Of a DNA stretch of 64,000 nucleotides, positions 1 to 18,100 are shown one piece after another; the stretch's first letter is position 1, and each line of letters starts with the position of its first letter. The notes below the pieces were generated by a model, which saw only the letters and a list, made by a program, of their open reading frames with translations, was not told where the DNA came from and made no database searches. This DNA comes from Chloroflexota bacterium (GTDB taxonomy: Bacteria; Chloroflexota; UBA11872). The stretch is taken from contig OY764080.1 in assembly GCA_963667925.1 (NCBI GenBank), positions 2,379,226 through 2,443,225 on the forward strand, written 5' to 3'. A program made the position numbers and the translations under genes.

Positions 1-417
1 ACGTCGTTTTCGTTAGCGATCGGCACGACTCCGGCGTCAAAGAGTCCCGTCAGCGCATTTCGGGCGTTCAGATAGCCGGTGCGATTGTGCAGATCGGCAC
101 GCGAAAGCAGTGCCTGCGCGACAGTCATACCCGCCTCCGCGAAGCAGTCCGAGTAGTGAGCCATCAGCGGCGCCTGCCCGATGGCCGCCAGCACCTGACG
201 CGCAACCAGGGCGTCGCCGGGCAGTGGGACGATTGAACGTCCGACAGCCACTGCTCCGGACGTCACCAGGGCAACCCGCGTCCCCGTCGAGCGGATGTCC
301 GCGATCTGCCGCGCCATGTTCGCGATAAACGCGTGATTGATCCCGGAATCGCCGGCAAGCAGGCGGGTACCGCACTTCACGACAATTCGACGGGAATCGG
401 GCGACATCGACCAGGGT
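1..417 (-). CDS. proB: Glutamate 5-kinase, N-terminal ~139 codons (gene runs off the window start)
   Basis: Minus-strand translation from ATG (revcomp of 415-417) gives MSPDSRRIVVKCGTRLLAGDSGINHAFIANMARQIADIRSTGTRVALVTSGAVAVGR..., a typical ProB N-terminus with the VSSGAVAAG-like motif. No stop before position 1. Confidence 0.8.
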
Positions 418-486
418 CTCCCAGCCTGCGGAGAAGCGGCGCACAGATTGTAGACAGGCGACGCCGTGTAGTCGCGGCCTCACGCC

Positions 487-492
487 TATAAT
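487..492 (+). promoter_or_regulatory. Candidate -10 hexamer TATAAT in the divergent proB / EF-G-like intergenic region
   Basis: Exact TATAAT lies 42 nt upstream of the ATG at 534. The -35 match is weak (CCGTGT/TGTAGT). Confidence 0.3.
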
Positions 493-533
493 GGCGACCC
501 GCGGCTCTGGCGCCGGTCGCCGCATGGCCGCAG

Positions 534-2606
534 ATGAGCGAGACGATGGACCGATACGACACGGATAGCATTCGAAACGTGGCCCTCGTCGCCCACAGCG
601 GCGCGGGCAAGACTTCGCTGGCCGAGGCGCTGTACTACGTCACCGGCAAGGCGTCGCGCCTGGGGCGTGTCGAGGAACACAACACGATCTCCGACTACGA
701 CCCGGACGAGCACGAGCGCGGCATGTCGATCAATCTGGCCGCCGTAGCCTGCGAATGGAACGGGTCAAAGATCAACGTGATCGACACCCCGGGGTACGCC
801 GACTTCGTTGGCGAGGTGATTTCCGGCCTCAACGCGACCGACGCCGCCGCGGTGCTCGTGGACGCCACGGCGGGGATTGAAGTCGGAACAGAAATCGTGT
901 GGCGCCTGGCCTCCGATCTGAACCGCCCGCGCCTATTGATCGTCAGTCGTGTCGACCGGGACAACGCCGACACCGAGTCGGTTGTCGACGACCTGCGCGA
1001 GCGCTTCGGCGCAAATGTCGCGCCGATCCAGGTACCGATTGGTGACGGTCCCGATTTCCGGGGCATCGTTGACCTCCTGGACGGCAAGGCGCGCGTCTTC
1101 GGCCCGAACGGATCGTCGGTGGAAGACACACCCGATGACCTTGCAGACACCGTTGAAGACGCTCGTGAGCAGCTGGTTGAAGCGGTGGCATCCACGGACG
1201 ACGAACTCCTCGAGCAATACCTGGAAGGCGAGGACTTGCAGCGCACGGACCTGGAACGCGCCTTGCGGACCGGGATAGCTGAGGGAAGCATCTTCCCAGT
1301 CCTGTTCACCGCGGCGACCGACCTCAAGGGGGTGCGGGAGACGATCGAAGCCCTCGCGACCCTGGCGCCTTCGCCGGCGGAGGGACTCAATACCCTTCTG
1401 GACGGCGACGCGCCGCCACTTGATGGACCGGTCGTTGCTCAGGTCTTCAAGACGCTGGCCGACCCGTTCGTTGGCAAGGTCTCAATGCTCCGCCTATTTG
1501 CCGGCCGGATCGACGGCGACGCGCAACTCGTGGATCAGCGCACCGGCGAGACCGAGCGACTGGCAAATATCCAGTTCGCGACAGGTAAGGAAGGGACGCC
1601 GGCCCGCCAGATGGCCGCTGGCGACATCGGGTTCGTCACCAAGCTTGACGGGGTGACAACCGGTGACACGCTGACGGCCGACGCACAGGCCGACAGCTTG
1701 CCGGCCTTTGCCATGCCGCAACCCTTGTTCGAGGCGTCAATCACTCCGGAGACCACCGCCGACCTGGACAAGATGGGAACGGCGTTAGCTCGCCTGGTGG
1801 AGGAGGACCCCTCGCTGCAGACGTATCGAAACGAAGAGACGTCCGAGACGATCCTTGCGGGTTTAGGCGAGTCGCACGTGCGCATCAGCCTGGAGCGGGC
1901 GCGCCGCAAGTTTGGGGTTGGATTGAATTCGGACGTGCCCCAGGTCGCGTATCGCGAGACCATTCGCAGAACCGTCAACGCGCATGGCCGCCACAAGCGG
2001 CAGTCGGGCGGCCACGGCCAGTTCGGCGATGTTCAAGTCGAGTTCTCGCCGCTGCCGCGCGGCTCAGGCTTCGAGTTTGAAGACCGCGTCGTGGGTGGGC
2101 GGGTACCGCGTCAGTACATCCCGGCCGTGGAAAAAGGCCTCACCGAGACGATCAACCGCGGGCTCCTCGCCGGCTACCCCGTGGTTGACCTCAAGGCCGC
2201 GCTATTTGACGGGCAGTACCACTCGGTCGACTCATCGGACGAGTCATTCCGCATCGCAGCGCGGCTGGCCTACGAGGACGGCGTCCCCAATGCCCACCCG
2301 GTGATCCTGGAGCCCATTCTCAAGCTCGACATCCTGATTCCCGACGGCAACACGGGCGACGTGATCGGAGATATCAGTTCGAAGCGTGGACACGTCCTCG
2401 GGATGGCGCCAGCCGAAGGTGAGCCCGGATGCTCGATCGTGGAGGTCGAGGCGCCAGAGGCGGAAGTGCAGCGATATGCGACGGACCTTCGCTCAATCAC
2501 GCAGGGCCGCGGACGCTTCACCCGCGAGTTCGTACGCTACGAGGAAGTTCCGCCAAACATCCAGGAGCAGATCGTCGCGATGGCGGCGCGAAAGCGAGAA
2601 CCGTAA
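534..2606 (+). CDS. Elongation factor G-like GTPase paralog (EF-G2 type, 690 aa)
   Basis: G1 motif AHSGAGKTS, then DTPGYADF, then the EF-G domain II-V pattern (ETSETILAGLGESHVRISLER; GGHGQFGDV). Confidence 0.9.
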   Translation: MSETMDRYDTDSIRNVALVAHSGAGKTSLAEALYYVTGKASRLGRVEEHNTISDYDPDEHERGMSINLAAVACEWNGSKINVIDTPGYADFVGEVISGLNATDAAAVLVDATAGIEVGTEIVWRLASDLNRPRLLIVSRVDRDNADTESVVDDLRERFGANVAPIQVPIGDGPDFRGIVDLLDGKARVFGPNGSSVEDTPDDLADTVEDAREQLVEAVASTDDELLEQYLEGEDLQRTDLERALRTGIAEGSIFPVLFTAATDLKGVRETIEALATLAPSPAEGLNTLLDGDAPPLDGPVVAQVFKTLADPFVGKVSMLRLFAGRIDGDAQLVDQRTGETERLANIQFATGKEGTPARQMAAGDIGFVTKLDGVTTGDTLTADAQADSLPAFAMPQPLFEASITPETTADLDKMGTALARLVEEDPSLQTYRNEETSETILAGLGESHVRISLERARRKFGVGLNSDVPQVAYRETIRRTVNAHGRHKRQSGGHGQFGDVQVEFSPLPRGSGFEFEDRVVGGRVPRQYIPAVEKGLTETINRGLLAGYPVVDLKAALFDGQYHSVDSSDESFRIAARLAYEDGVPNAHPVILEPILKLDILIPDGNTGDVIGDISSKRGHVLGMAPAEGEPGCSIVEVEAPEAEVQRYATDLRSITQGRGRFTREFVRYEEVPPNIQEQIVAMAARKREP

Positions 2607-2639
2607 GGTCGTCGCGCCGCGACCCGGGAGTCTGGTCAC

Positions 2640-3698
2640 ATGAACGCACCGGAACGCATTTTTCTAAACTCGCTCGTTGAGGCTCCCAGCCCTTCGGGCT
2701 ACGAGCAGCCGGTGCGCCGTGTGTACCACGAGTACACCCAGGCATTCGCCGACGCCGTCCGCTCGGATGTGCACGGCAACGTCATCGCCACGCGCAATCC
2801 GGAAGGTAGCCCGCGTGTGATGTTCGCGGGGCACTGCGACGAGCTTGGATTCCAGGTCAACTACATCACGAGCGAAGGCTTCATCTACTTCAACACGATC
2901 GGGGGCCACGACGCCGGTGTCATCCCGGGCCGCCGTGTAGTCATCCACACGCAAAACGGTCCTGTCGCAGGCGTAACAGGGCGACGGGCGATTCACCTCA
3001 CGCCAGTGAGCGATCGTGGCAAACCGGCCAAGGTCGAGGACATCTGGATCGATATCGCGGTAGCGGACAAGGACGAGGCGTTGAGCCTGGTGCAGATCGG
3101 CGACCCCATCACCTACGACGTCGGGATTCAGGACCTGCGGAACGGCGTCGTGGCCGGTCGCGCGCTGGATAACAAGGTAGGCGCCTGGGTGGTCGGAGAG
3201 GCATTGCGGCGAATCGACGGTGCGCAACTGCAGGCGTCCGTGCACGCCGTGGCCACCGTCCAGGAAGAGATTGGTCTGCGAGGAGCGGAGACGAGTGCGT
3301 TCGGCATCAACCCACTGGCGGCGGTCGCGGTGGACGTGACGCACGCCACCGATCACCCCAACATCAACAAGAAGACCGCCGGCGACGTAACGCTTGGCGG
3401 CGGCCCCACAATTTCGCGCGGGCCAAACTTCAATCCGGTTGTCGTCGAAAAGCTAATCGAAGCCGCGGAAGCCCTGGACATGCCTGTGCAAATGGAAGCG
3501 GCCGGTCGCGGAACGGGCACCGATGCAAACGCGATACAGCTGTCGCGGGGCGGCGTGGCGACAGGCCTGGTTAGCGTGCCGCTGCGCTACATGCACACGC
3601 CGTCGGAAATCGTGGCGCTAGCCGACGCCGACGCCGCGGCAACGCTGCTGGCAGAGTTCGCGAACCGGGTCTCAGCCGACGACGATTTCACGCCGTAG
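2640..3698 (+). CDS. M42 family metallopeptidase (FrvX/CelM-like glutamyl aminopeptidase)
   Basis: AGHCDELGF metal-binding motif and overall M42 architecture. Confidence 0.85.
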   Translation: MNAPERIFLNSLVEAPSPSGYEQPVRRVYHEYTQAFADAVRSDVHGNVIATRNPEGSPRVMFAGHCDELGFQVNYITSEGFIYFNTIGGHDAGVIPGRRVVIHTQNGPVAGVTGRRAIHLTPVSDRGKPAKVEDIWIDIAVADKDEALSLVQIGDPITYDVGIQDLRNGVVAGRALDNKVGAWVVGEALRRIDGAQLQASVHAVATVQEEIGLRGAETSAFGINPLAAVAVDVTHATDHPNINKKTAGDVTLGGGPTISRGPNFNPVVVEKLIEAAEALDMPVQMEAAGRGTGTDANAIQLSRGGVATGLVSVPLRYMHTPSEIVALADADAAATLLAEFANRVSADDDFTP

Positions 3699-3749
3699 GT
3701 ACGTCCGACTCGACCCTATCCGGCCGCTCGCCGATCTAGCCAGGATTCC

Positions 3750-6700
3750 TTAGGCCGCAGGCGTTCGCACGATGTGCGCCGGCACGTCCTGAACGGCGCG
3801 CTCGGCCCAGTGTGGGTCGGCGGTGAAGAGGAACACCTGCCGGTCGCCGGGCATGTTGGCCAATGCTGCAAGGCCGCTGGCGGTCCGTCCCGGATCCCAG
3901 TTGACGAACATCTCATCGAGGAACAGCGGCAGCGGCTCGTCACCTTCCACGAGATCGACCATGGCCAGCCGCAACGCGAAGTAAATCTGTTGAATCGTCC
4001 CGCGGCTCAGCGGCGTATCCACATCCTGAGGAAAGTCCTCGCCGGTCCGCCGAACCTGGAGATTGGCCCCCGAAGAACTGGCGTCGTCGACACTCAGCAG
4101 GTCATATCGTTCGTGCGTGAAGCCGCGTAGGTATCGGCCCGCCACAGAGAGCAATGGCGACTGATATCGGTCGCGATACGACGTGTCGGCTTCCTGCACC
4201 AGCTTCTGCAGAAGGGCTACCCGGTCGTGCTCCCGGCGCACGAAATCCAGGCGCTCCTCCGCAGCTCTGATGGCACCCATTATGTGAGCAGGCCCCGGCT
4301 CGTCCATCCACCGATTGCGCTCCGTAGTTATTCTGCCGCGCTCATCCGCCAGGTCTTGGGCTGTCCGTCGCAGCTCCTCTGCTTCACGTCGGCTCTCAAC
4401 CCGTTCAGCGTCGCTGAGACCTATCTGAACGCCACCGTCCAGAAGCTGCTCGGCCTCGACGAATCGCTGCCGCCAGTCGGGGACGTCGCGCTCAAGCTCA
4501 AGCAGTACGCGTCGTGCTTCGGCGCGCAGATCGAACGCATGCAGCACCCGCTCGAGTCCAACCTCGGGGTTGGCACCGTGCGGATCAACGACGGCGAGTG
4601 AGGCGTCGATTCGTTCGAGTTTGACGTGACCATCGTCAAGCTCCTCGCCACAAGCCTCAAGCTGCTGGCGGAGGCCTGGAATCTCGGCATCTGCGATGTT
4701 GGCAATACGTTTGGTTTCCAACGCGTCTTCCAGCGCCCGCCGCGCGGCTGGCGCCGCCTCGAAGGGGTCAACGGGCAGTTCAATTGCGAGTTCCTCCCGC
4801 AGGCGTGTCACCCCGTCGTACCAGGCCTTAAGACTTGCGGCCACTTGTCGCCTATTGCGGCGCAGACGTTGGGCGCTGCCTACAATCTGGCGCATGTCTT
4901 CCAGGTCTCGGACCATGGCTTCATTAGGCGTTTCACGCTGTACTGGCGCGATCGGCACGTCTGCAACTACTGACAGAAACTCCGCATGCGCCTCGCCGGA
5001 GGCCGTCGCGGCCCGCTCTACCTCGGCCTCCGCAGCCTCTAGCTCAGCCTGGCCTGCCTCGAGTTCCTGGCGCAGCCGCATCACGTCAGCCTTGGCTTGC
5101 TCTGCGGCGCGCTCAACCTCCAGCGCATCCTGAAGCGCCCGCCGCGCGGCCGGTGCCGAGTCGAAAGGATCTACCGGCAGGTCGCGCCCAAGCGTCGGCA
5201 TCAACCGCTCGACTTCGTCTCGCCAGGCGGCCAGCCGTGAAGCCACAGCTTCTCGATTTCGCCGCAGTCGCTCGGCACTGCTCAGCATCAGACGCATCTC
5301 TTCTAAGTCGCGGACCAAGCCCTCATCAGGAGTCTCATGCTGTACTGGCGCGATCGGCACATCCGCAACTACCGACAGAAACTCCGCATGCGCTTTGCTC
5401 GCTGCCGTAGCGGCCCGCTCAACCTCGGCCTCCGCCGCCTCTAGCTCCGCCTGGCCTGCCTCAAGTTCCTGGCGCAGCCGCATCACGTCAGCCTTGGCTT
5501 GCTCTGCGGCGCGCTCAACCTCCAGCGCATCCTGTAGTGCCCGCCGCGCGGCCGGTGTCGCCTCGAAAGGGTTTTCCGGCAGGTCGCGCCCAATCGTCGG
5601 CGTCAACCGCTCGACTTCGCCTCGCCAGGCGGCCAGCCGTGTTGCCACAGCTTCTCGATTTCGCCGCAGTCGCTCGGCGCTGCTCAGCATCAGACGCATC
5701 TCTTCTAGGTCGCGAAGCAGCCCCTCGTCCGGCGCCTCGAGGTGAATCCGAGCGACGGGGACATCCGCAACTACCGTTAGAAACTTCTCGTGCGCCCTCT
5801 CGGCCGTTCTTTCGTTGGCCATGACGCGCTCACGTGCTTCGACTTCGGATTCCTTCGCGTCTGCCATTTGCTCGAGCACGTCGTCGCGCCGCATGGCGGC
5901 GTCTCGACTTTTCTGAGTCCGCTTGACCTCGGCCTCAAGATCGGCGTCGAACTCGAGCCCTAGTCGATGGAGCCGCGATTCCAATCCGACGCTGGCCTTC
6001 TTCTGACGTCGGCGCGACCAACTTTTATTCGCAGCGACGGAAGCAACTACGGTCAGCACAGCCGCCACTGCAACAATGACAAGCACCCCAATCGGCGCGC
6101 TAAACGCGAAGGTAAATGAGAGGGCCAGCGCGCCGAGCAGGATCGGTATCGCTATCCAGGCAGCTGCATTCAGCGTCACCGGAGCCGAGATCAGAGCCTG
6201 GTAACGCGCAATGTGGTGGAGTTCTCGCAACCGGTCGTCGAGTTCAGCGCGGCTGTGCTCGGTCGCGACGGACTCAAGTCTCCGCTTCAAGCGGGCGCGA
6301 TTTGACTCAGCAGCTTGAAAGTCAACAACGGCGGCAGCCCGCTGCCGCACCGCAGCCTGCAGATTGGCAAAGCGTCCGCGCAATTCGCCCACAGAGAGCT
6401 TGAGCACCGCAATCCGCGTGTCTGCATCGACCTGATCCGTTCTCAGTATCCGTCCGGCAATCTCGCGCAGAGAGTCGTTGATGCCACGCGCCTCGGAATC
6501 AATGCTCGCAAGGCTCTCCTGGTTTTCCTGAGCACGGGAGAGTTCGCGGTCGAGACGCTCAATGTCAGTGCGAGCACCTAGCAGCGCAAGCATCCGATCC
6601 TCGATCTCGAGCGCCTGTTCACGCTCCTCAATCGCGAGTTGGGTTTCCCGTTGCTGAACCTGGAGTTGCACCAGACGATCACTAACCGACTGCACCTCTT

Positions 6701-8231
6701 GCCGGGACTCCCGCCACGCGGCGAAGCGCCCTCGTAACTCGGCCACCGAGATCGTGAGGAGTGCTCTGCGGGTAGCAGAGTCAATCTGATCGCACGTGAG
6801 CGTGCGCCCGGCGACTTCACGGAGTGCGCCGTCGCTGCGTTGCAGCTCTGCATTCATGCTCCGCACCCGGTCTTGGTTTTCCTGCGCGCGCGATGTCTCG
6901 CGGTCCAAGCGTTCGATATCCTCACGGACCTCCAGAAGCGCGCAGGTACCAACGTCAACCTCCAGCGCGGCTTCGCGGTCCGCGATCCTCTTACAGATGT
7001 CGTCTTGCCCAGACTGAAGCCGCTTCAGGCGACTATCCGCTGCGTCAAGCAGATTCCGGGAATCCCGCCAGCCGGCGAAGCGCCCACGCAATTCGACCAC
7101 TGAGAGTTCGTTAATCGCGCGGCAGACGCCTTCGTCAAGCTGTTCCACTGTGAGCACGCGCGCCGCCAGTTCTTGCAGCCCACCGTCGCTGCGCTGCAAC
7201 TCACTATCCATGCTCCTGATGCGATCACGATCCTCTTGCGCGCGAGACAGCTCGCGGTCCAGTCGCTCGACATCAGCGCGGGCAACCAAGAGACGGCGGA
7301 TTCCCGCCTCAACTTCACGCGCCTTCTCGCGCTTCGCGATCTTCACCCGAAGATCCTTCCGCTGTGCCGTGAGCTTCTCCGAGCGATCACGAAGTCTCGC
7401 TCGCTCTTCGGCGACACCGTCCCAGGTGTCGCCTCCGGGTGCCAGGTCCGCAGCCCGTGCTTCGAGTCCACGAAGACGGCCGACCCGTCGAACCAGAGGT
7501 GCCAGCGTGCGGTCCCGCTCTAGCGCTAGCTCAATGCGCTGTAGTTTTCGTTCATTTGCTGCCAGGTCTGAGGCAATCCCCCGCAGTCGCTCATCTGCCT
7601 GCTCGATCCGGCCACGGTGCTCACGAGCCTCGGCCAGGCTCCCGCGCAACCGCCGAATCTGATCGGTAAGCTCGCGGTGTGCCGGCTTCCCGCGACGATC
7701 GGACCGCCAGAGGCGCCGGCGGTCAGCCTCCAGGGCACGCACGATTTCGCGCGATGGCCGCAGATAGTCAAATGGACTTCCACCCAGCAGATTCTGCACG
7801 GCCTGCCAAGCCTGCTGATCAAGCCGGAGCGCCTCGTCTTGAGTCAAGGCATACACGTTCTTGAAGACGGCGCGGTCCATGAGGCCAGTCCAAGGAACCT
7901 GTCGATTGGCAAGATCGCCCTCGTCGCTGTTAATCCTGATTCGTCCAAACGGCCGCGCTCGGAGTCGACGTGCAACGCTAGCCAGATCGCCGTTGCGCAG
8001 CACAACATCCAGTCGACCGTGCGGATACTGTCCGCCCCAGGGTCGATAAGGATGGCCGTCGGCCGTGGCCGGAGAGAATCCGAACATTGCGCTGGTAAAA
8101 AACTCAAAGAGCGCGCTCTTCCCGGATTCGTTGGGACCGAGAACGACAACCACGTCATGGTCAGCAAGGCCCTTTGTCGACCAATCCGTGATTGGTCCAA
8201 AGTCAGCTATAGACCAACCCTCAACCCTCAC
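3750..8231 (-). CDS. Giant SMC/SbcC/Rad50-like AAA ATPase (YhaN/SbcF type, 1493 aa)
   Basis: N-terminal Walker A (VVVLGPNESGKSALFEFF); C-terminal signature LSRGTIQQIYFALRLAM and Walker B LPLFLDEMFVNWD. Between them, long coiled-coil arms with internal tandem repeats and a ~45-aa hydrophobic segment (AAWIAIPILLGALALSFTFAFSAPIGVLVIVAVAAVLTVVASVAA). 4-nt overlap with the upstream phosphoesterase gene. Confidence 0.8.
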   Translation of the reverse strand: MRVEGWSIADFGPITDWSTKGLADHDVVVVLGPNESGKSALFEFFTSAMFGFSPATADGHPYRPWGGQYPHGRLDVVLRNGDLASVARRLRARPFGRIRINSDEGDLANRQVPWTGLMDRAVFKNVYALTQDEALRLDQQAWQAVQNLLGGSPFDYLRPSREIVRALEADRRRLWRSDRRGKPAHRELTDQIRRLRGSLAEAREHRGRIEQADERLRGIASDLAANERKLQRIELALERDRTLAPLVRRVGRLRGLEARAADLAPGGDTWDGVAEERARLRDRSEKLTAQRKDLRVKIAKREKAREVEAGIRRLLVARADVERLDRELSRAQEDRDRIRSMDSELQRSDGGLQELAARVLTVEQLDEGVCRAINELSVVELRGRFAGWRDSRNLLDAADSRLKRLQSGQDDICKRIADREAALEVDVGTCALLEVREDIERLDRETSRAQENQDRVRSMNAELQRSDGALREVAGRTLTCDQIDSATRRALLTISVAELRGRFAAWRESRQEVQSVSDRLVQLQVQQRETQLAIEEREQALEIEDRMLALLGARTDIERLDRELSRAQENQESLASIDSEARGINDSLREIAGRILRTDQVDADTRIAVLKLSVGELRGRFANLQAAVRQRAAAVVDFQAAESNRARLKRRLESVATEHSRAELDDRLRELHHIARYQALISAPVTLNAAAWIAIPILLGALALSFTFAFSAPIGVLVIVAVAAVLTVVASVAANKSWSRRRQKKASVGLESRLHRLGLEFDADLEAEVKRTQKSRDAAMRRDDVLEQMADAKESEVEARERVMANERTAERAHEKFLTVVADVPVARIHLEAPDEGLLRDLEEMRLMLSSAERLRRNREAVATRLAAWRGEVERLTPTIGRDLPENPFEATPAARRALQDALEVERAAEQAKADVMRLRQELEAGQAELEAAEAEVERAATAASKAHAEFLSVVADVPIAPVQHETPDEGLVRDLEEMRLMLSSAERLRRNREAVASRLAAWRDEVERLMPTLGRDLPVDPFDSAPAARRALQDALEVERAAEQAKADVMRLRQELEAGQAELEAAEAEVERAATASGEAHAEFLSVVADVPIAPVQRETPNEAMVRDLEDMRQIVGSAQRLRRNRRQVAASLKAWYDGVTRLREELAIELPVDPFEAAPAARRALEDALETKRIANIADAEIPGLRQQLEACGEELDDGHVKLERIDASLAVVDPHGANPEVGLERVLHAFDLRAEARRVLLELERDVPDWRQRFVEAEQLLDGGVQIGLSDAERVESRREAEELRRTAQDLADERGRITTERNRWMDEPGPAHIMGAIRAAEERLDFVRREHDRVALLQKLVQEADTSYRDRYQSPLLSVAGRYLRGFTHERYDLLSVDDASSSGANLQVRRTGEDFPQDVDTPLSRGTIQQIYFALRLAMVDLVEGDEPLPLFLDEMFVNWDPGRTASGLAALANMPGDRQVFLFTADPHWAERAVQDVPAHIVRTPAA
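4540..5742. repeat. Intragenic tandem direct repeat, 3 x 402 bp (134 aa), in the C-terminal coiled-coil arm of the SMC-like ATPase
   Basis: Units starting at 4939 and 5341 begin with the identical ctgtactggcgcgatcggcac and are near-identical over long stretches. A third copy (~4540-4938) is more diverged. Confidence 0.85.
6440..7500. repeat. Intragenic tandem repeat, 3 x ~350 bp (~110-117 aa), in the N-terminal coiled-coil arm of the same gene
   Basis: Recurrent LERLDRELSRAQE(D/N)(R/Q)DR(I/V)RSM(D/N)(S/A)ELQRSDG(G/A)L(Q/R)E(L/V)A protein motif. DNA motif gcggtc(g/c)a(g/a)(a/t)cg(c/t)tc(a/g)a(t/c)at at ~6541, ~6891 and ~7245. Confidence 0.7.
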
Positions 8232-9559
8232 AGCCGATCCTCGCGCAGCATCCGCTCGGCAACTGCAAAGTCGAGTCCGTCCAGCAACTCGCGGAGATAA
8301 GCCAGCCGTTCGGGGCCATCAGGATGCTCATCGGCGAGAGCAAGTTCCTCCGGAGCCAGCCGGGCAAGGATCGAGTTGTCGACGCGCGCCAGATTCACGA
8401 GTTCGAGCGCTTCGCCCAGCACGTGCTGCTGGCCGACATATCGGGCGGGGTCGATCGGCGGATAGAGCCCGGCGTCGCGAACCTCGACTTCGAGCACCCC
8501 AAGCACTGCGCAAAGATCTTCGGCCAATTCGTTGCGCTCGTCGGCTCGGCGCAGTACATCGACCAGCGGGCAAGGGCCGGCAAGATTCACGCGCAGAATC
8601 CACTCTTGGTCGGGCAACACATTCGCGTCGGACTCGCGTAGACGTTCGAAATTCGCCCGTATTTGGTCCTGGAGAATGGTGATGCTGTGGGCACTTCTAA
8701 GGTCCGGACTTGGTAGTTCCTCCCAGCGCACGGGCGCCAGCGGGTGGAAGCGCACGCGAGGGGCAGCAGGCGGGTCCAAATCGACAACTAGTGCCCCCTT
8801 GGCGCCGGATTCTCCGAAGTCCCGGCCCTGCAGATTGCCGGAATACCAGGCGGGAGAGTCCTCGCGGATTCGTTGGCGTTTGTGGATATGACCGAGCGCC
8901 CAGTAGGCGTAGCCTGGATCTAGATCGGAAAGAGCAGCGGGTGCGTAGACGTGTCCAGCTTCGTCGTACGCCGCGCCCTGCGCGCCGCCGACATCTGCGT
9001 GCAAAAGCGCGACGGCAGGTTCCGGACCTGGCGCCTCCGGGAAGGATGCAGCAAGGTTGGTCGACTCGTGGGTCGTCTGGTGTCCCGCCCCCACAACCCA
9101 GCCCACGCGATTGCCTCCACGAAGGATGGGAATCTTCTGCGGCGTCCGGGACTTCAGTAGGCGAAGGCCGCCTGACGGCCAAGCAATGCGCGAAGCGCGG
9201 TAGTTGGCACGACCAGGATCGTGATTGCCGGTGGCGTAAACCACCGTCACATCGGCGTCAGCGAGCTGTTCCAGTTCACGTATCAGTTCTAACTCTGTTG
9301 CGATGGTTAGCCATTCGTTGTCGAACAGGTCGCCAGCGATCACCAGCGCGTCGGCATCTTTCAGAATGGTCAGAGCAACCAGTCTCTTGAGTGCCTCGCG
9401 GCCCGCGTCCTGAAGCCGTTGCCTTAGCGCGGGATCGTGACGTCGATAGGGAGTGTCGAGATGAATGTCAGCCGCGTGGACTATACGCACAGGCTCTTCC
9501 ACTTCCGCTATGATGGCGTCTGAAGCGTCCGGCGGCGGTGCACCGCCGCCGGACGCCAA
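8228..9559 (-). CDS. SbcD/Mre11-like calcineurin-type phosphoesterase (YhaO/SbcE type DNA-repair exonuclease)
   Basis: Motifs VHAADIHLD, GDLFD, GNHD and GHIH. ORF-track start is TTG at 9559; in-frame GTG at 9500-9502 or 9488-9490 (MRIVHAADIHLD) is the more plausible start. 4-nt overlap (8228-8231) with the ATPase gene implies translational coupling. Confidence 0.8.
   Translation of the reverse strand: MASGGGAPPPDASDAIIAEVEEPVRIVHAADIHLDTPYRRHDPALRQRLQDAGREALKRLVALTILKDADALVIAGDLFDNEWLTIATELELIRELEQLADADVTVVYATGNHDPGRANYRASRIAWPSGGLRLLKSRTPQKIPILRGGNRVGWVVGAGHQTTHESTNLAASFPEAPGPEPAVALLHADVGGAQGAAYDEAGHVYAPAALSDLDPGYAYWALGHIHKRQRIREDSPAWYSGNLQGRDFGESGAKGALVVDLDPPAAPRVRFHPLAPVRWEELPSPDLRSAHSITILQDQIRANFERLRESDANVLPDQEWILRVNLAGPCPLVDVLRRADERNELAEDLCAVLGVLEVEVRDAGLYPPIDPARYVGQQHVLGEALELVNLARVDNSILARLAPEELALADEHPDGPERLAYLRELLDGLDFAVAERMLREDRL
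9525..9556. promoter_or_regulatory. Perfect 32-bp GC-rich palindrome (GCGTCCGGCGGCGGTG|CACCGCCGCCGGACGC) at the 5' end of the phosphoesterase/ATPase operon
   Basis: Read directly from the sequence: 16+16 nt perfect inverted repeat. It lies between the ggt stop (9699) and the operon start (5' UTR, or first codons if the TTG start is real). Confidence 0.6.
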
Positions 9560-9610
9560 TGCCTGGCTCCAGCGGCTCTATACAAACACCGCCCAAGCCA
9601 CACGCGACCT

Positions 9611-9642
9611 TAGCATATTTAGCGAAATTTGCGGAAGTTCAA
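9611..9642 (-). promoter_or_regulatory. Candidate sigma70-like promoter (minus strand TTGAAC ... TAAATA/TATGCT) in the locally AT-rich ggt / yhaO intergenic region
   Basis: Hexamer inspection only. The region is markedly AT-richer than its flanks. Confidence 0.25.
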
Positions 9643-9698
9643 CCCTTTTATGGGAAGGGGCTGCAATCTCGCATTTTGGCGATTTTCCAGGAATACAC

Positions 9699-11300
9699 CT
9701 AGACGCCGATGGCGTAGCCGTCCCGACGTGGGTCGGCGCCTCCCTGGAGCGCGCCGGTCGCGGGGTTGCGGCTGGCGCCCTGCATGCCGCCGACGGCCAT
9801 GGTCCAGGGGTCGGTGGCTTCGGCGCCGTGGCCTCGGGCAGCCAGATCGTCAATCACGCTCTGGTCGATACGAGATTCGACAAGCACCAGGTCGCCATCC
9901 ATCAGCCGCATGCGCGGTGCTTCGATGGCGGCCTGCACGTCCAGCCCAAAGTCCACGTGCTGCACCAGGGCCTGCGGCTGGGTCTGGCAAATGCCGTAGC
10001 TGCCGGGCGTGCCCAGCGCCAAGACCGGCTCGCCATCGCGCAGGGTGATGGTGGGGGCAATTGGCAACGAGAGCGGGGCGCCCGGGTATAGGTGATTCGG
10101 GCTCAGCGGGTTCAGATCGCCCCACCGAAGCAAATCGTTGGTCAGCACGCCATGCCCCTGGACCACAATGCCCGAGCCGAACCCGGCGCCGAGGCTTTGG
10201 GTCAGACACACGGCGTTGCCTTCGGCGTCCATCACCGAGAACGAGGTGGTGTGCTCCAGCATGGGATCGGGCTTTGAGCCAGGCGCCGGCGCGGCTCCGA
10301 TCTGCTCCGTGGGACCGCTGATGGCCTCGGGCGAGTCCAGCAGACCGCGCAGCCGATCCAGATTCTCGTCCCCCAGGATTTCTTCGACGATCTCGATAGG
10401 CGCGTTGGCGTGGCGGAAGCGTACTTGGGATGACAGCCGAATGGCTCGGATGATCGCGTCCAGATGCTCCGCGCCATTTCGCTCGAGGGCCCCGATGTCC
10501 AGATGACTCACGAGGCCCAGCGTCATCAGCATCTGAAAGCCCTCGGACGGCGGCGGTGCGCCATTGACTTCCAGGTCGCGGTACGCGATTCGGATCGGGT
10601 CTTGCCAGCGCGCTTCCACGGCGGCCAGGTCTTCCATGGAGAGTGCCCCGCCGAGCGCCTGAATTTCATTGACCAAGGCCTGGCCCAGGGCACCGTGATA
10701 CAGGTAGTCGGGCCCCTCGCTGACCAGGGCCTCGTAGGTGTCGGCCAGGTCGTGCTGATGCAGCATCCAGCCGGCGCCCGGTTCTTCATCGTTGTCCAGG
10801 AAGATTTCCGACCAGCCGGGGAAGATCTCCGCGATGTCGTTCAGGCGGCCGCCGATCATGTGGGCGTTGCCTTCGCTGACGGGGAAGCCGCCGCGTGCAA
10901 GCTCAATGGCGTCGGCGAAGAGCTCGGCCGTCGTGCGCGTGCCGTACGTGTCCAGCAGCTTCATCCAGCCAGCGAGACTGGCCGGCGGGCCCACGCCGTG
11001 CGGACCGCGGGTCAGGTCGTCGTAGCGTCGCGCGATGGAATCGAACTTGAGCGGTACGGCCGGCGTGAAGTCCAAACAACGCACGCGGCGCTCGGCAGCC
11101 ACGTAGACCATGGCCGTGCCCATGCCGGCCAGCCCCGACATGTATGGCTCAACCACATCGAGCGCGGCTGCGGTGGCGACAGCGGCGTCAAATGCGTTGC
11201 CGCCGTTGGACAGGATGCGAGCGCCTGCCTGCGCCGCGAGAGGATGGGCCGCCGCGACTACGCCTCGGCGGGAGGTGACGCTTGGCCGCCGTCCAAACAT
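9699..11300 (-). CDS. ggt: Gamma-glutamyltranspeptidase
   Basis: GGT-family N-terminus (AAHPLAAQAGARIL..GGNAFDAAVA) and the catalytic Thr region TTSFSVMDAEGNAV; 533 aa. Confidence 0.9.
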   Translation of the reverse strand: MFGRRPSVTSRRGVVAAAHPLAAQAGARILSNGGNAFDAAVATAAALDVVEPYMSGLAGMGTAMVYVAAERRVRCLDFTPAVPLKFDSIARRYDDLTRGPHGVGPPASLAGWMKLLDTYGTRTTAELFADAIELARGGFPVSEGNAHMIGGRLNDIAEIFPGWSEIFLDNDEEPGAGWMLHQHDLADTYEALVSEGPDYLYHGALGQALVNEIQALGGALSMEDLAAVEARWQDPIRIAYRDLEVNGAPPPSEGFQMLMTLGLVSHLDIGALERNGAEHLDAIIRAIRLSSQVRFRHANAPIEIVEEILGDENLDRLRGLLDSPEAISGPTEQIGAAPAPGSKPDPMLEHTTSFSVMDAEGNAVCLTQSLGAGFGSGIVVQGHGVLTNDLLRWGDLNPLSPNHLYPGAPLSLPIAPTITLRDGEPVLALGTPGSYGICQTQPQALVQHVDFGLDVQAAIEAPRMRLMDGDLVLVESRIDQSVIDDLAARGHGAEATDPWTMAVGGMQGASRNPATGALQGGADPRRDGYAIGV

Positions 11301-11406
11301 GGGCGCTGAACTCCTTGCGATGGGTGTGAGGTCGCATGATGCGCGCTTCTCGGCATCGTGGCATATCCAACGAGACTTCGTTCAGTTTTCGCCACCCGGT
11401 GCGGTG

Positions 11407-12129
11407 TCAATACGATTCCGCCACGTCCTCCAGCGCCTGGCGATCGAGGACGTCAATGCGTTTACGGCCAATGGCGATCATCCCCGCGTTCTTGAGTTCG
11501 TTCAGGGCCTGCGTGGCTGTCTCGCGCGATGTGCCGACCCGTTCCGCCATGTCGCTGTGTGTTAGCCCCGTAACGCGGGCGTCGGCATCCGAGGAAAGAC
11601 GCAGTATCAACGTGGCAAGTCGAGCGGTCAGCGACTTGAGTGCCAGGTCTTCAAGTTGCGTCTCGGCTTCGCTGAGACGATCTGCCAGGGTCTGCATGAT
11701 GCGAACCCCGACTGTGGGAAAACGTCCGATCAGGAATTCCAGGTCTCGTCGACTGATGACACACAGCGTCGATTCCTCCAGCGCTTCGGCAAACGAGTCA
11801 CGGCGCGACTGTCCCAGCAATGCCATCTCGCCGAAGAACATGCCTGGCTCGATATTGGAAGTGACGAAACGTTTCCCATCGGGGGAAATGCGGTAGATCT
11901 GAACATGTCCTGTCTTCAAAAGGAATAGCGTCTCCGACTTCTCGTCCGGCTGGTAGAGGATTCGCCCGGGACCAACCGTGGACATGCGCGTGTTGCGCTC
12001 GACCTCATATATTTGCGCTTCGGATAGATCCTGGAAGACCTCAACCTGCTGCAGATAGCGTCGCTTCAGTGCGCCGGGATCAGGGTTCTGGCCAGGGCTT
12101 CGTCCAAGTCTCCACCTAGCTTCACGCAT
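11407..12129 (-). CDS. Crp/Fnr family transcriptional regulator
   Basis: cNMP-binding fold (GEMALL..) and a C-terminal HTH (SDMAERVGTSRETATQALNELK). Confidence 0.8.
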   Translation of the reverse strand: MREARWRLGRSPGQNPDPGALKRRYLQQVEVFQDLSEAQIYEVERNTRMSTVGPGRILYQPDEKSETLFLLKTGHVQIYRISPDGKRFVTSNIEPGMFFGEMALLGQSRRDSFAEALEESTLCVISRRDLEFLIGRFPTVGVRIMQTLADRLSEAETQLEDLALKSLTARLATLILRLSSDADARVTGLTHSDMAERVGTSRETATQALNELKNAGMIAIGRKRIDVLDRQALEDVAESY

Positions 12130-12282
12130 TGTTCTCCGCCCGAGATCTCTGCGTCGTCAGGGCCTAAGACGCCAGAAATGCTCCCGCACAGCCTCTATTG
12201 ACGACCTGGTTGCTCAATCCACATGTTGGCACAGGAGCACGGCCGATTGGAGCTGGTGATCCCCTGGATCACGCCCCGGCAA

Positions 12283-13275
12283 TCAGTTCGGCACTTGAAG
12301 AAAGGGCTTCGCCTCGCTTATCCCGCCGAGATCCATGGTCTCGGCAGCCGCGCGATCGCGCCGCATGGCGCTTACCAGGTCCTCGACCGAGTCAAACGCT
12401 TCCTGACCACGCAGCCAGGCACGGATGAAGGTTCGCAGGCCACGACAATAGATGTCGCGATTGAATCCCAGGAGATGGACTTCGAAGAGTCGCGCTTGGT
12501 GGTCAAACGTGGGACGGGTGCCCACGCTGATCAGTGCCGGATGAGGCTCCGGATCGCCGTCGACGAGCGCCGATCCGGCATAGACACCATCTGCCGGGAG
12601 GACCAGCCACTGGGGAAGGTCAACGTTGGCCGTTGGAAACCCTAATTCGCGGCCTCGACCGTCGCCACGACCCACGGTGCCGTACAGACTATGGCTTCGG
12701 CCAAGAATCTCACGAAGCCTGTCCACTTCGCCCGAAGCCAGGGCGCTGCGAGCCCGCGTGCTTGAAATGGCGCCAGGTGCACCCTCATAGCGCACGGGCA
12801 AGTGAGTGAATCCCAGTCGCGGCGCCAGGCACGCGATGACATCCGGCGTACCCTCGCGATCTCGTCCAATGGCAGCGGTAGGACCGGTGACGAGCGTCCG
12901 CATGTCCAGCCGCTGTACCAGGTCACCAAGGAAATCCTCCGCCGAGCGGCGAGAGAATTGCTGGTCGAAACGCAAAACAACGATGTCATCCACACCGGAT
13001 GCCGCCAGCAGGGTGATTCGGTCGTTGAGTGTGGTCAACATCCGTCGGGGTTCCGAGGGCCGCAGAACCCATTCCGGCGGGGGCCAGAGGGTCACCGCGA
13101 TCGCGCGATCTTCACCGGGACCGGCAGCTGCCCGGCAGGCGGCTTGCAGCAAGGCACGGTGACCCCGGTGAACCCCGTCGAAACGTCCAATCGTTACCGA
13201 GGCGCTGCCCAGGGGAACGAACGTGTCGTCCTCGCGAAATACGCGCACGCGGCGCACATTCGTGGCCTGTGCCAC
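12283..13275 (-). CDS. ribF: Bifunctional riboflavin kinase / FMN adenylyltransferase
   Basis: GRFDGVHRGHRALL nucleotidyltransferase motif plus a riboflavin kinase C-terminal domain. The ORF-track N-terminal extension (to 13653) overlaps truB and is rejected. Likely start is GTG at 13273-13275, overlapping the truB stop by 1 nt (alternative GTG at 13288-13290). Confidence 0.85.
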   Translation of the reverse strand: MAQATNVRRVRVFREDDTFVPLGSASVTIGRFDGVHRGHRALLQAACRAAAGPGEDRAIAVTLWPPPEWVLRPSEPRRMLTTLNDRITLLAASGVDDIVVLRFDQQFSRRSAEDFLGDLVQRLDMRTLVTGPTAAIGRDREGTPDVIACLAPRLGFTHLPVRYEGAPGAISSTRARSALASGEVDRLREILGRSHSLYGTVGRGDGRGRELGFPTANVDLPQWLVLPADGVYAGSALVDGDPEPHPALISVGTRPTFDHQARLFEVHLLGFNRDIYCRGLRTFIRAWLRGQEAFDSVEDLVSAMRRDRAAAETMDLGGISEAKPFLQVPN

Positions 13276-14231: not shown

Positions 14232-14508
14232 CGTCAGGTTGCGCTGCCAGGGTTTGCATCCCTTGATCGGTCGCATCGCCGTCGGCACTGCGCTGGGTCG
14301 TCGGCGCGGCCGTCAGCATCTCCGGATCGAGTTGAAATCGAATCTGCGGGATGCGGTACACACGAATGCGAGTCGCAAGCTGCCGCCGAACATACATCGA
14401 CGCGCGCTGCAAGGCGGCCACAGACTGTTCGATGTCGTGGTTGTCCCCTAGCGGCGAGACAAACACTATGGCGTGGCCCAAATCGGGCGAGATCGATACG
14501 TGCCGCAC
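14221..14508 (-). CDS. rbfA: Ribosome-binding factor A
   Basis: VRHVSISPDLGHAIVFVS..RIPQIRFQLD. RbfA-like sequence continues in-frame upstream (..RRAQRIEAQIAREVSDLLERHLEDPAIGFVT) with no ATG/GTG/TTG, so the true start is unresolved. Confidence 0.75.
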   Translation of the reverse strand: MRHVSISPDLGHAIVFVSPLGDNHDIEQSVAALQRASMYVRRQLATRIRVYRIPQIRFQLDPEMLTAAPTTQRSADGDATDQGMQTLAAQPDDGP

Positions 14509-14626
14509 AGTGACGAACCCAATCGCCGGGTCTTCGAGGTGGCGCTCCAGGAGGTCGCTTACCTCACGCGCGATCTGAGCTTCAATCCGTTGGGCACGGC
14601 GGGTCTTGATAGTGCGACCTCCGGTG

Positions 14627-16510: not shown

Positions 16511-16511
16511 G

Positions 16512-16730: not shown

Positions 16731-16807
16731 GATACGAATGAGTTGACGTTTCGGACGCTTTTCGCGCGTGACAACGCAGGTGCGAGTCGGCTCAGCTCGG
16801 GCGATGA

Positions 16808-17998: not shown

Positions 17999-18100
17999 GG
18001 GAATGCCTCCTCAGGACGTTTGGACCGCTTCCCTCCCCCGGGAAAAAGACGGGCACTTCGCCCGCCCACGACAGACAATGCGGCTACGCACAGTCTAGCA

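What the first reader, a model, noticed from the sequence alone, without database searches (positions are those of the whole stretch)
3750..9559. SbcCD-like operon with an oversized, symmetrically repeat-expanded SMC-like ATPase carrying a central hydrophobic hairpin
The 1493-aa ATPase has split Rad50/SbcC-type heads (Walker A at the N-terminus; LSRGT signature and Walker B at the C-terminus). It is translationally coupled to an Mre11/SbcD-type phosphoesterase. Each coiled-coil arm carries three tandem repeats: ~110-117 aa x3 in the N-arm and 134 aa x3 in the C-arm. That is the pattern expected if an antiparallel intramolecular coiled coil was lengthened on both strands together. The apex is replaced by a ~45-aa hydrophobic segment predicted to be a membrane hairpin, where Rad50 would carry a zinc hook. 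Nuclease complexes of the YhaN/YhaO (SbcF/SbcE) type act in DNA repair, and SMC-like ATPase plus nuclease pairs also recur in anti-phage systems. A membrane-tethered version with arms roughly 1.5x the usual length is atypical for either role.
Basis: partly seen in the sequence, partly recalled or inferred. Interest (0 to 1): 0.65.

Follow-up and report, generated by a model that had tools for sequence, protein, structure and literature searches.

The report
Membrane-hooked repair ATPase with tripled arms
This is the ordinary YhaN/YhaO (SbcE/SbcF) DNA-repair ATPase–nuclease pair of a sponge-type Chloroflexota bacterium, but in a rare allele whose two coiled-coil arm strands have each been lengthened by the same number of repeat modules (1+1 → 2+2 → 3+3 among orthologs), a natural example of SMC-like arms growing in matched, whole-module steps.

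Summary
Window 3750-8231(-) encodes a 1493-aa ATPase with Walker A at the N-terminus and LSRGT plus Walker B at the C-terminus. It has 3x118-aa repeats in the N arm, 3x134-aa repeats in the C arm, and a charge-free ~50-aa central two-helix hydrophobic hairpin. A GTGA overlap couples it to an Mre11/SbcD-type nuclease.

The interpretation needs two corrections.
- The hydrophobic apex is not atypical. It occurs in 230 of 235 full-length homologs, and the 2009 SbcE paper described it as the hallmark of the YhaN/SbcE family.
- This is the resident, syntenic housekeeping ortholog (IF2-TruB-RibF-Crp-GGT-nuclease-ATPase-M42-EFG in about 20 species), not a defence-island gene.

What is unusual is the arm expansion. 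Fifty-four close relatives carry 1+1 units (~990 aa), one carries 2+2 (1240 aa), and seven carry 3+3 (~1495 aa). None has unequal multiple copies. The units sit at matched distances from the apex, and all six are under purifying selection. The 3+3 clade has 200/200 bootstrap support. The allele lies in flanks that are 95-99% identical to a genome with a 1+1 allele, which suggests transfer by recombination.

Verdict: a new variant of a known kind. Arm pairing, membrane insertion and function are inferred, not shown.

The parts
3750..8231 (-). YhaN/SbcE-family SMC-like ATPase, 1493 aa, GTG start; the 3+3 arm allele
   Evidence: ORF and translation. Pfam AAA_27 (PF13514) at aa 1-198, E 3.9e-12. 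Homologs that sources name 'YhaN'. The ortholog model best matches Rad50 7zr1_D at E 4e-16.
8228..9490 (-). YhaO/SbcF-type Mre11/SbcD-family nuclease. Probable 420-aa form from GTG 9490; the longest ORF runs to TTG 9559. Its stop overlaps the ATPase start (GTGA).
   Evidence: Metallophos E 2e-13. Partial SbcD/Mre11 NCBIfam hits, all below their cut-offs. PDB Mre11 chains E 8e-13. Junction sequence. Start site.
7662..8231 (-). N-terminal half of the ABC-ATPase head (aa 1-190), with Walker A GPNESGKS at nt 8115-8138
   Evidence: Invariant G32, N34, E35, G37, K38 across 84 homologs.
7032..7385 (-). N-arm repeat unit N1 (aa 283-400), head-proximal
6678..7031 (-). N-arm repeat unit N2 (aa 401-518)
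6324..6677 (-). N-arm repeat unit N3 (aa 519-636), apex-proximal
6024..6167 (-). Central hydrophobic helical hairpin (aa ~689-736): two ~20-residue helices joined by an SAP turn, followed by RRRQKK. It takes the place of a zinc hook or hinge.
   Evidence: Two helices in the ortholog model, H458-477 and H481-505. Present in 230 of 235 homologs. No CxxC.
5436..5837 (-). C-arm repeat unit C1 (aa 799-932), apex-proximal
5034..5435 (-). C-arm repeat unit C2 (aa 933-1066)
4632..5033 (-). C-arm repeat unit C3 (aa 1067-1200), head-proximal
4891..5714 (-). Recently homogenised tract of the C-arm array: 402 bp x 2 at 90% identity. The core is aa ~845-965 against 979-1099, 82-100% DNA identity, out of phase with the unit borders.
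   Evidence: TRF and sliding identity. The N arm has no counterpart; it is 51-68% identical throughout.
3753..4331 (-). C-terminal half of the ATPase head (aa 1301-1493), with signature LSRGT at nt 3996-4010 and Walker B LPLFLDEM at nt 3909-3932
   Evidence: Invariant S906, Q912, D936 and others in the homolog alignment.

Best explanation
The locus is the chromosomal YhaO-YhaN (SbcF-SbcE) operon of a Chloroflexota bacterium. It encodes an Mre11/SbcD-like nuclease translationally coupled to a Rad50-like ABC ATPase. The ATPase's two head halves are joined by a folded-back antiparallel coiled-coil arm.

As in nearly all members of this family, the tip of the arm is a two-helix hydrophobic hairpin rather than a zinc hook or hinge. 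I infer that this hairpin sits in the cytoplasmic membrane with both arm strands in the cytoplasm. The ATPase-nuclease head would then work on DNA at a distance from the membrane set by arm length.

In this allele the arm has been extended by two extra modules. Each module is one 118-aa N-strand unit paired with one 134-aa C-strand unit: about 100-110 helical residues per strand, about 16 nm, with two conserved helix breaks on each strand. This takes the arm from roughly 39 nm to roughly 74 nm.

The apex lies between the two arrays, so each step needs two separate tandem duplications. Only matched states (1+1, 2+2, 3+3) are seen, so selection evidently removes mismatched intermediates. The step size fits the ~100-aa steps reported for natural SMC arm lengths, so adding a whole module may preserve the rotational phase between head and apex.

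Shown here: gene identity, repeat structure, matched copy numbers, rarity, purifying selection, synteny and the recombination mosaic. Inferred: physical N:C pairing register, membrane insertion, DSB-repair function, and what the longer arm is for.
For: Family assignment:
- AAA_27/YhaN head.
- Hits named 'YhaN'.
- Nuclease is Metallophos/Mre11/SbcD.
- GTGA overlap between the two genes.
- PMC2811018 describes SbcE with a conserved hydrophobic, insoluble central domain, no CxxC, an adjacent SbcD-like YhaO, and DSB-repair and competence phenotypes.

Fold:
- AF2 model of the 1+1 ortholog P0011 has pLDDT 84, with arms at about 90.
- Full-length Foldseek matches to Rad50, Smc5/6, MukB, condensin and JetC.

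Hydrophobic apex:
- for this protein; family-wide in 230 of 235 homologs.

Coordinated expansion:
- HMM unit counts in full-length proteins are 54 x (1,1), 1 x (2,2) and 6 x (3,3) plus the query. No unequal multi-copy state was found.
- Length arithmetic agrees: 1493 - 2 x (118+134) = 989, and 990 + 252 = 1242, close to 1240.
- Unit borders lie 58-59 residues from the hairpin on both strands.
- Helix breaks recur with period 118 in the N arm and 134 in the C arm of the query-arm model.

Maintenance and rarity:
- dN/dS is 0.13-0.59 in all six units against L001.
- Only P0006 (1496 aa) and P0007 (1240 aa) exceed 1100 aa among the best 150 of 1.84 billion representatives.
- Only L001 and L002 are expanded among 62 species-level loci.

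Age of the expansion:
- 3+3 monophyly has 200/200 bootstrap support.
- Units show positional orthology across 3+3 proteins that are only about 55% identical.

Housekeeping context:
-.

Step size:
- Burmann et al. 2017 (PMC5344682) report natural SMC arm lengths in steps of ~100 aa, with intermediate lengths disfavoured.
Against: - No coordinates or contact maps were available, so the N1:C3, N2:C2, N3:C1 register rests on topology and on symmetric distances from the apex.
- The query-arm model is only moderate (pLDDT 72, pTM 0.33, 18-sequence alignment).
- Membrane insertion is predicted from hydrophobicity alone. The B. subtilis study reported nucleoid and polar foci and did not report membrane association.
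- No NCBIfam model reaches its cut-off for either protein.
- The position of the 2+2 protein relative to the 3+3 clade is unresolved: 21% bootstrap with 3+3, 22% with 1+1. The number of independent expansion or contraction events is therefore unknown.
- The unit trees are NJ on 118-134 columns without support values.
- One period of the C array was homogenised recently with no matching change in the N arm. The two arrays therefore do not always change together at the DNA level.
Confidence: 0.72

Rival explanations
1. The pair is an anti-phage or anti-plasmid defence system (Lamassu-, Wadjet- or Gabija-like SMC ATPase plus nuclease), and the arm-length polymorphism and allele exchange reflect an arms race.
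For: - PADLOC LmuB models match at E 8.6e-10 and 2.4e-6, and mad3 at E 4e-7.
- Foldseek lists JetC and LmuB among the structural neighbours.
- The operon genealogy disagrees with the flanks, and deeply diverged alleles (54-68% identity) sit in flanks that are 90-99% identical. That pattern is often seen at loci under diversifying selection.
Against: - The LmuB hits cover only coiled coil (aa 554-1025 and 279-592).
- The nuclease has no PADLOC hit, and no LmuA, JetAB or other partner is present.
- The operon occupies one fixed site between GGT and an M42 peptidase in about 20 species, among translation and cofactor genes. It behaves as a core gene, not an island.
- Neighbouring TruB and RibF are similarly divergent (61-89%), and the whole 18 kb is a recombination mosaic. 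The operon is therefore not uniquely variable.
Confidence: 0.08
2. The central hydrophobic segment is not a membrane anchor. It is a buried dimerisation element, a hinge or hook substitute forming a four-helix bundle between two protomers, so arm length concerns ring size rather than distance from the membrane.
For: - Rad50 hooks and SMC hinges at this position are dimerisation modules (PMC6969161, title and abstract listed).
- SbcE-YFP formed nucleoid-associated foci in B. subtilis.
- The first helix is only marginally hydrophobic on the Hessa scale, about +0.1 kcal/mol.
Against: - There are 58 consecutive uncharged residues.
- The second helix scores -2.2 kcal/mol.
- The segment is followed by RRRQKK, a cluster of positive charges of the kind that usually sits on the cytoplasmic side of a membrane helix (my inference).
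- The pattern is conserved in 230 of 235 homologs at 25-99% identity.
- The isolated domain and the whole protein are insoluble in E. coli.
- The two roles are not exclusive, since dimerisation could occur within the membrane.
Confidence: 0.15
3. The triple repeats, or the chimeric flanks, are assembly artefacts of a metagenome bin.
For: - Tandem repeats and closely related co-occurring strains are classic sources of misassembly.
- The window switches nearest relative at ~3950, ~9000, ~9600 and ~11300.
- The exact protein is not in the searched protein collection; the best hit is 87% identical.
Against: - The 3+3 architecture recurs in six other 90%-identity clusters from independent assemblies. 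These include a 3.8-Mb chromosome-level MAG (L001) and a 313-kb contig (L072), with identical unit borders.
- Units are 44-73% identical at the DNA level except for one tract, too diverged for repeat collapse or inflation.
- The reading frame is intact, and dN/dS is below 1 in every unit.
- A chimeric join cannot be excluded for the flank mosaic, but it would not affect the repeat finding.
Confidence: 0.03
4. The repeated units are added interaction modules rather than spacers. Each unit pair carries a conserved non-coiled-coil joint that binds a partner (DNA, the nuclease, or another factor), so tripling multiplies binding sites rather than tuning length.
For: - Each unit keeps strongly conserved motifs in all three copies: SVxELRGRF in N units; FLxVVADVPxAP..E.P and PAARRAL in C units.
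- Some of these positions are invariant or nearly invariant across the family.
- Predicted helix breaks coincide with these motifs.
Against: - No partner is known.
- The motifs may simply be what holds the two strands in register at the breaks.
- This reading still requires paired N:C units and is compatible with the main explanation.
Confidence: 0.12

Closest known systems
SbcE/SbcF (YhaN/YhaO) of Bacillus subtilis; Pfam AAA_27 (PF13514) family
   Same: - SMC-like ATPase with the AAA_27 N-terminal head and a C-terminal signature/Walker B head.
- Long heptad arms and a unique hydrophobic central domain instead of CxxC.
- An adjacent SbcD-like nuclease gene.
   Different: - 1493 aa against 963 aa.
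- The nuclease is translationally coupled upstream, and no YhaM gene lies downstream.
- Each arm strand carries three tandem modules.
- Sequence identity to Firmicutes members was not measured here.
- The DSB-repair and competence functions were shown only in B. subtilis.
Rad50/SbcC-Mre11/SbcD
   Same: - ABC-ATPase head fold with an antiparallel coiled-coil arm. The best structural match of the ortholog model is Rad50 7zr1_D.
- The partner has Mre11 phosphoesterase motifs and matches Mre11/SbcD chains.
   Different: - No zinc hook (no CxxC); the apex is a hydrophobic hairpin.
- No Rad50 or SbcC NCBIfam model matches.
Periodic arm-length constraint of SMC proteins (Burmann et al. 2017, PMC5344682)
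   Same: Natural arm lengths fall in steps of ~100 aa, intermediate lengths are disfavoured, and engineered arms work only at periodic lengths. Here the step is one 118/134-aa module per strand, and only matched states occur.
   Different: - That work inferred the steps from length distributions and engineered constructs. Here the steps are visible as recognisable tandem duplications within one orthologous gene.
- This protein is a membrane-hairpin Rad50-like protein, not Smc. No functional test exists.
Lamassu LmuB and Wadjet JetC (defence SMC-like ATPases)
   Same: SMC-like fold, with weak HMM and structural similarity.
   Different: - Similarity is confined to the coiled coil or the generic head.
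- No system partners are present.
- The gene sits in a core-genome, syntenic context.

Membership tests
YhaN/SbcE family (Pfam AAA_27) | N-terminal AAA_27 head domain with Walker A | tested here: met
   PF13514 E 3.9e-12, 46.7 bits against a cut-off of 22, aa 1-198. GPNESGKS at aa 32-39.
YhaN/SbcE family (Pfam AAA_27) | C-terminal head half with signature motif and Walker B | tested here: met
   LSRGT at 1408-1412 and LPLFLDEM at 1434-1441. These positions are invariant in the 84-sequence alignment.
YhaN/SbcE family (Pfam AAA_27) | Conserved hydrophobic central domain between the two heptad regions, with no CxxC hook (PMC2811018) | tested here: met
   The same feature is present in 230 of 235 homologs. 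Paper text.
YhaN/SbcE family (Pfam AAA_27) | Adjacent SbcD-like (YhaO/SbcF) nuclease gene | tested here: met
   The pairing is conserved in all complete related loci.
YhaN/SbcE family (Pfam AAA_27) | Curated NCBIfam family model above its cut-off | tested here: inconclusive
   No YhaN-type model appeared among the NCBIfam hits. All listed hits are far below their cut-offs.
YhaN/SbcE family (Pfam AAA_27) | Role in double-strand-break repair or transformation | not testable with these tools
   Shown only for B. subtilis.
Rad50/SbcC | Zinc hook (CxxC) at the coiled-coil apex | tested here: not met
   No CxxC motif. The only Cys residues are at 370, 413, 430, 480 and 1194.
Rad50/SbcC | Rad50-type ABC ATPase head with antiparallel coiled coil | tested here: met
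   The ortholog model matches 7zr1_D at E 4e-16 and Rad50 heads 3qkt and 5dny at E ~1e-5. The test used the 1+1 ortholog, not the query itself.
SMC proper | Hinge dimerisation domain | tested here: not met
   No SMC hinge domain in the Pfam scan. TIGR02168 scores 24.6 bits against a cut-off of 567.
Mre11/SbcD nuclease (partner) | Calcineurin-like phosphoesterase domain with motifs I-V (DxH, GD, GNHD, H, GHxH) | tested here: met
   Motifs DIH, AGD, GNHD, LLHAD and GHIH are visible in the translation. Metallophos E 2e-13. PDB Mre11 chains E 8e-13. The SbcD and Mre11 equivalog models are all below their cut-offs.
Lamassu (LmuB + LmuA) | LmuB head match and an LmuA effector partner | tested here: not met
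   LmuB HMM hits are restricted to coiled coil. The nuclease has no PADLOC hit, and there is no LmuA neighbour.

The most novel reading that the evidence does not exclude
Arm length in this membrane-hairpin Rad50-like family is a modular, heritable trait. A self-contained N:C module of about one coiled-coil period, with its own conserved joints, can be added in whole numbers without disturbing head-apex phase. Mismatched intermediates are purged. The long-arm (3+3) allele has persisted long enough for its carriers to diverge to about 55% identity. It has been moved between species by homologous recombination because it confers a distinct property, for example a longer reach from membrane to DNA.
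Probability: 0.3. Interest if true: 0.65.

Novelty: new variant of a known kind. Interest (0 to 1): 0.5.

Why it matters
Work on engineered Smc proteins showed that SMC-like arms function only at certain periodic lengths. Length distributions hinted that the same holds in nature, but how arms change length in evolution was not visible.

This locus provides a ready-made allelic series (1+1, 2+2, 3+3) of one orthologous gene at one chromosomal site. The added material is still recognisable as paired tandem duplications on the two strands. That gives a natural set of constructs for three tests:
- whether whole-module steps preserve function;
- what the conserved joints do;
- whether arm length sets the working distance of a membrane-anchored nuclease machine.

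It also draws attention to the barely studied YhaN/SbcE family (8173 hits at E<=1e-3 in the representative library). Its near-universal hydrophobic apex implies a membrane-tethered DNA-end-processing complex. That idea has not been tested since the 2009 description.

Tried and rejected
- Defence-system reading. PADLOC gave only weak LmuB, mad3 and AriAB matches, the two LmuB ones confined to coiled coil, and nothing for the nuclease. The neighbourhood is housekeeping. Rejected.
- Other paired expansions. A search in Longimicrobiales/Gemmatimonadota homologs and in the longer distant homologs (P0060, P0096, P0097, about 1190-1290 aa) found only low-complexity C-terminal extensions and no paired repeats. 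The self-BLAST screen also failed to flag L001 and L002, so it is not a sensitive negative.
- Placing the 2+2 protein as an intermediate. The head/apex NJ bootstrap was unresolved at 21% against 22%. Unit trees suggest a shared first duplication, with P0007 N2 grouping with N3 and P0007 C1 with C1, but they lack support values.
- Reading the arm register from AlphaFold. The tool returns no coordinates, so only secondary structure, pLDDT and Foldseek neighbours could be used.
- Promoter and terminator scan of 3600-9800. Nothing above the shuffled expectation.
- Literature searches for membrane association of YhaN, and for SbcEF work after 2010. Nothing beyond the 2009 paper and one passing mention.
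- A first bootstrap run and a first pairwise-identity script timed out and were redone with faster code.

Full report
**Observation**

Window 3750-8231 (minus strand) is an uninterrupted 1493-codon ORF.
- Its N-terminus carries Walker A (GPNESGKS, aa 32-39).
- Its C-terminus carries an ABC signature (LSRGT, aa 1408-1412) and Walker B (LPLFLDEM, aa 1434-1441).

Self-comparison gives sharp peaks at offsets of 134 and 118 residues and their doubles, far above background: 57, 38, 35 and 31 identities per 60 residues against at most 17.
- Aligning the units shows 3 x 118 aa at aa 283-636, 42-52% identical to each other.
- It also shows 3 x 134 aa at aa 799-1200, 50-78% identical.

Between the arrays lie 58 residues without a single charge.
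- The Kyte-Doolittle 19-mer maximum is 2.9.
- There are two ~20-residue hydrophobic stretches, 692-710 and 714-732, with summed Hessa-scale values of about +0.1 and -2.2 kcal/mol. I recalled the scale values from the literature.
- An SAP turn joins the two stretches, and RRRQKK follows them.
- There is no CxxC motif.

The upstream ORF is a calcineurin-like phosphoesterase with all five Mre11 motifs.
- It matches Pfam Metallophos.
- It gives partial SbcD/Mre11 NCBIfam matches, all below their cut-offs.
- It matches solved Mre11/SbcD chains at E 8e-13.
- Its stop overlaps the ATPase start as GTGA.
- Its real start is probably GTG at 9490 (MRIVHAADIHLD, 420 aa, as called in a homologous contig), not the TTG at 9559.

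**What it is**

The N-terminal head matches Pfam AAA_27, the YhaN family. Several database homologs are named 'YhaN' by their sources.

The only experimental paper on the family is Krishnamurthy et al. 2009 (PMC2811018). It describes B. subtilis SbcE (YhaN) as follows:
- It is an SMC-like protein most similar to SbcC.
- It lacks the CxxC hook.
- It has a 'unique central domain', conserved in all homologs, rich in hydrophobic residues and completely insoluble.
- It is encoded next to the SbcD-like YhaO (SbcF).
- It acts in double-strand-break repair and transformation.

I tested the generality of the hydrophobic centre. Of 235 full-length homologs collected from two searches, 230 have a ~50-residue hydrophobic stretch centred at 48% of their length.

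No zinc hook or hinge is present, so the protein is not a member of Rad50/SbcC or SMC proper, although it works on the same architectural plan.

An AlphaFold2 model of the 990-aa ortholog P0011, built with 84 sequences, has mean pLDDT 84 and arms near 90.
- It shows two helices at the apex, 458-477 and 481-505.
- Its best Foldseek matches over ~1050-1250 aligned columns are Rad50 (7zr1_D, E 4e-16), Smc5/6, MukB, condensin and JetC.
- That is the folded-back head-arm architecture.

**Context**

The flanking genes are EF-G-like GTPase, M42 aminopeptidase, gamma-glutamyltranspeptidase, a Crp-family regulator, RibF, TruB and IF-2.
- A scan of one genome per species found 71 related loci. The close ones are all Chloroflexota MAGs, and the more distant ones are Longimicrobiales/Gemmatimonadota.
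- Many isolate labels resemble those used for marine-sponge metagenome bins. That reading is mine, from the labels only.
- In about 20 species the order IF2-TruB-RibF-Crp-GGT-nuclease-ATPase-M42-EFG is identical.
- PADLOC gave only weak matches, most of them in coiled coil, and none for the nuclease.

This is a resident core gene, not a defence-island gene.

**The unusual part: matched arm expansion**

Homolog lengths fall into three classes: ~990 aa, 1240 aa and 1493-1498 aa. The arithmetic fits whole units: 1493 - 2 x (118+134) = 989, and 990 + 252 = 1242.

I built HMMs from the query's own units and counted copies.

| N units, C units | Full-length proteins |
|---|---|
| 1, 1 | 54 |
| 2, 2 | 1 (P0007 = L002) |
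| 3, 3 | 6, plus the query |

- No protein has unequal multiple copies.
- The (0,1) and (1,0) cases are distant or truncated sequences in which one HMM loses sensitivity.
- A 513-aa fragment, P0123, has 1 N and 2 C units but is cut at its N-terminus.

In the 1+1 protein the N unit ends 58 residues before the hairpin and the C unit begins 59 residues after it. The duplicated segments therefore face each other in an antiparallel arm.
- Predicted helix breaks occur at symmetric distances from the hairpin: N 361-378 against C 586-600, and N 307-318 against C 646-652.
- In a model of the query's arms (aa 190-1300, pLDDT 72) the breaks recur with periods of exactly 118 and 134 residues.
- The nearest structural neighbours of that model are again SMC-type arms and elbows.

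The apex lies between the two arrays, so no single duplication can lengthen both strands. Each step requires two events, and only balanced outcomes are observed.

All six units are under purifying selection in comparison with L001, with dN/dS of 0.13-0.59. They retain the same conserved motifs: SVxELRGRF, FLxVVADVP...P, and PAARRAL.

**Rarity and age**

- Among 1.84 billion cluster representatives, 8173 match at E<=1e-3.
- Of the best 150, only the 3+3 and 2+2 representatives exceed 1100 aa.
- Among 62 species-level loci, only L001 and L002 are expanded.
- The 3+3 proteins form a clade in 200 of 200 NJ bootstraps on 950 shared columns, yet they differ from each other by up to 45%.
- Their units group by position (N1 with N1, N3 with N3, C1 with C1, C3 with C3), so the tripling predates their divergence.
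- The 2+2 protein's apex-proximal units group with the apex-proximal units of the 3+3 proteins. This hints at a shared first duplication.
- The whole-protein tree does not resolve its position: 21% against 22%.

In the query lineage one period of the C array (aa ~845-965 against 979-1099) is 82-100% identical at the DNA level. The N array is 51-68% identical throughout. Gene conversion or unequal crossing-over has therefore homogenised one arm without changing copy number.

**Recombination**

The nearest species-level relative changes along the window.

| Window segment | Content | Nearest relative | DNA identity |
|---|---|---|---|
| 1-3950 | EF-G, M42, last ~70 codons of the ATPase | L014 (1+1 allele) | 95-100% |
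| 3950-9000 | rest of the ATPase, 3' part of the nuclease | L001 (3+3 allele) | 88-96% (55-70% to L014) |
| 9000-9490 | 5' part of the nuclease | none close | at most 77% |
| 9900-11100 | GGT | L014 | 92-98% |
| 11400-16500 | Crp to IF-2 | L003 | 87-90% |

- Trees agree with this picture. The operon tree groups the window, L001 and L072. The flank tree pairs the window with L014 and pairs L001 with other 1+1 genomes.
- The simplest reading is that the 3+3 allele entered an L014-like background by homologous recombination, with one crossover inside the conserved C-terminal head.
- A chimeric assembly join cannot be excluded without reads, but it would not affect the repeat structure.
- The whole region is mosaic, and TruB and RibF are as divergent as the operon. 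I therefore do not read this as locus-specific diversifying selection.

**Mechanism, with what is shown and what is inferred**

Shown:
- a YhaO/YhaN-type nuclease-ATPase operon;
- a Rad50-like fold for its ortholog;
- a family-wide hydrophobic apex;
- matched modular expansion under purifying selection.

Inferred:
- The hairpin inserts in the cytoplasmic membrane with a three-residue outer turn, and both strands return to the cytoplasm.
- The head-nuclease module processes DNA ends as in SbcCD/MR.
- The arm sets the reach of the head from the membrane. At 0.148 nm per helical residue this is roughly 39 nm for 1+1 and roughly 74 nm for 3+3.

Burmann et al. 2017 (PMC5344682) found that natural SMC arm lengths come in ~100-aa steps and that engineered arms function only at periodic lengths. 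A module of ~100-110 helical residues per strand fits that step. It would preserve the rotational relationship between head and apex.

Why a few lineages keep a doubled arm is unknown.

**Verdict**

The finding is a real, rare structural variant of a known but poorly studied family. The 'both strands lengthened together' part is well supported by comparative data. I rate it a new variant of a known kind, of moderate interest mainly to people working on SMC/Rad50 arm mechanics.

Noticed in passing
window 1-18000: The region is a recombination mosaic relative to species-representative genomes. EF-G, M42, the last ~70 ATPase codons and GGT are 95-99% identical to L014. The rest of the operon is 92-94% identical to L001. 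Crp to IF-2 is 87-90% identical to L003. The 5' third of the nuclease gene (9000-9490) is at most 77% identical to anything fetched.
   Followed up: partly
window 4891-5714 (ATPase aa ~845-1099): One period of the C-arm repeat array is 82-100% identical at the DNA level to the next, out of phase with the unit borders. The N-arm array shows no such tract. This indicates recent gene conversion or unequal crossing-over confined to one strand of the arm.
   Followed up: partly
window 9490-9559: The longest nuclease ORF starts at TTG 9559. Homology, the gene call in a related contig (420 aa) and the MRIVHAADIHLD N-terminus all point to GTG 9490, with a purine-rich stretch just upstream.
   Followed up: yes
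window 38253-41279 (+): A 1008-aa ORF lies in a stretch of 71-73% G+C and has a C-terminal cadherin/bacterial Ig domain. The next ~10 kb has strongly negative GC skew, which flips to positive at ~50 kb.
   Followed up: no
window 52861-54564 (+): A tryptophan-halogenase-like FAD enzyme (Pfam Trp_halogenase E 7e-37) sits next to a 564-aa ORF with no Pfam match at 50950-52644.
   Followed up: no
P0123 (513-aa fragment from the representative library): A partial protein about 52% identical to the query has one N unit, the hydrophobic hairpin and two C units before it is cut. It probably comes from a further multi-copy lineage that is not among the full-length hits.
   Followed up: partly
L032-L071 (Longimicrobiales/Gemmatimonadota loci): The ATPase orthologs there fall into discrete length classes (about 826-831 aa and about 907-929 aa) without detectable internal repeats. 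This may reflect another, older stepwise arm-length difference.
   Followed up: no
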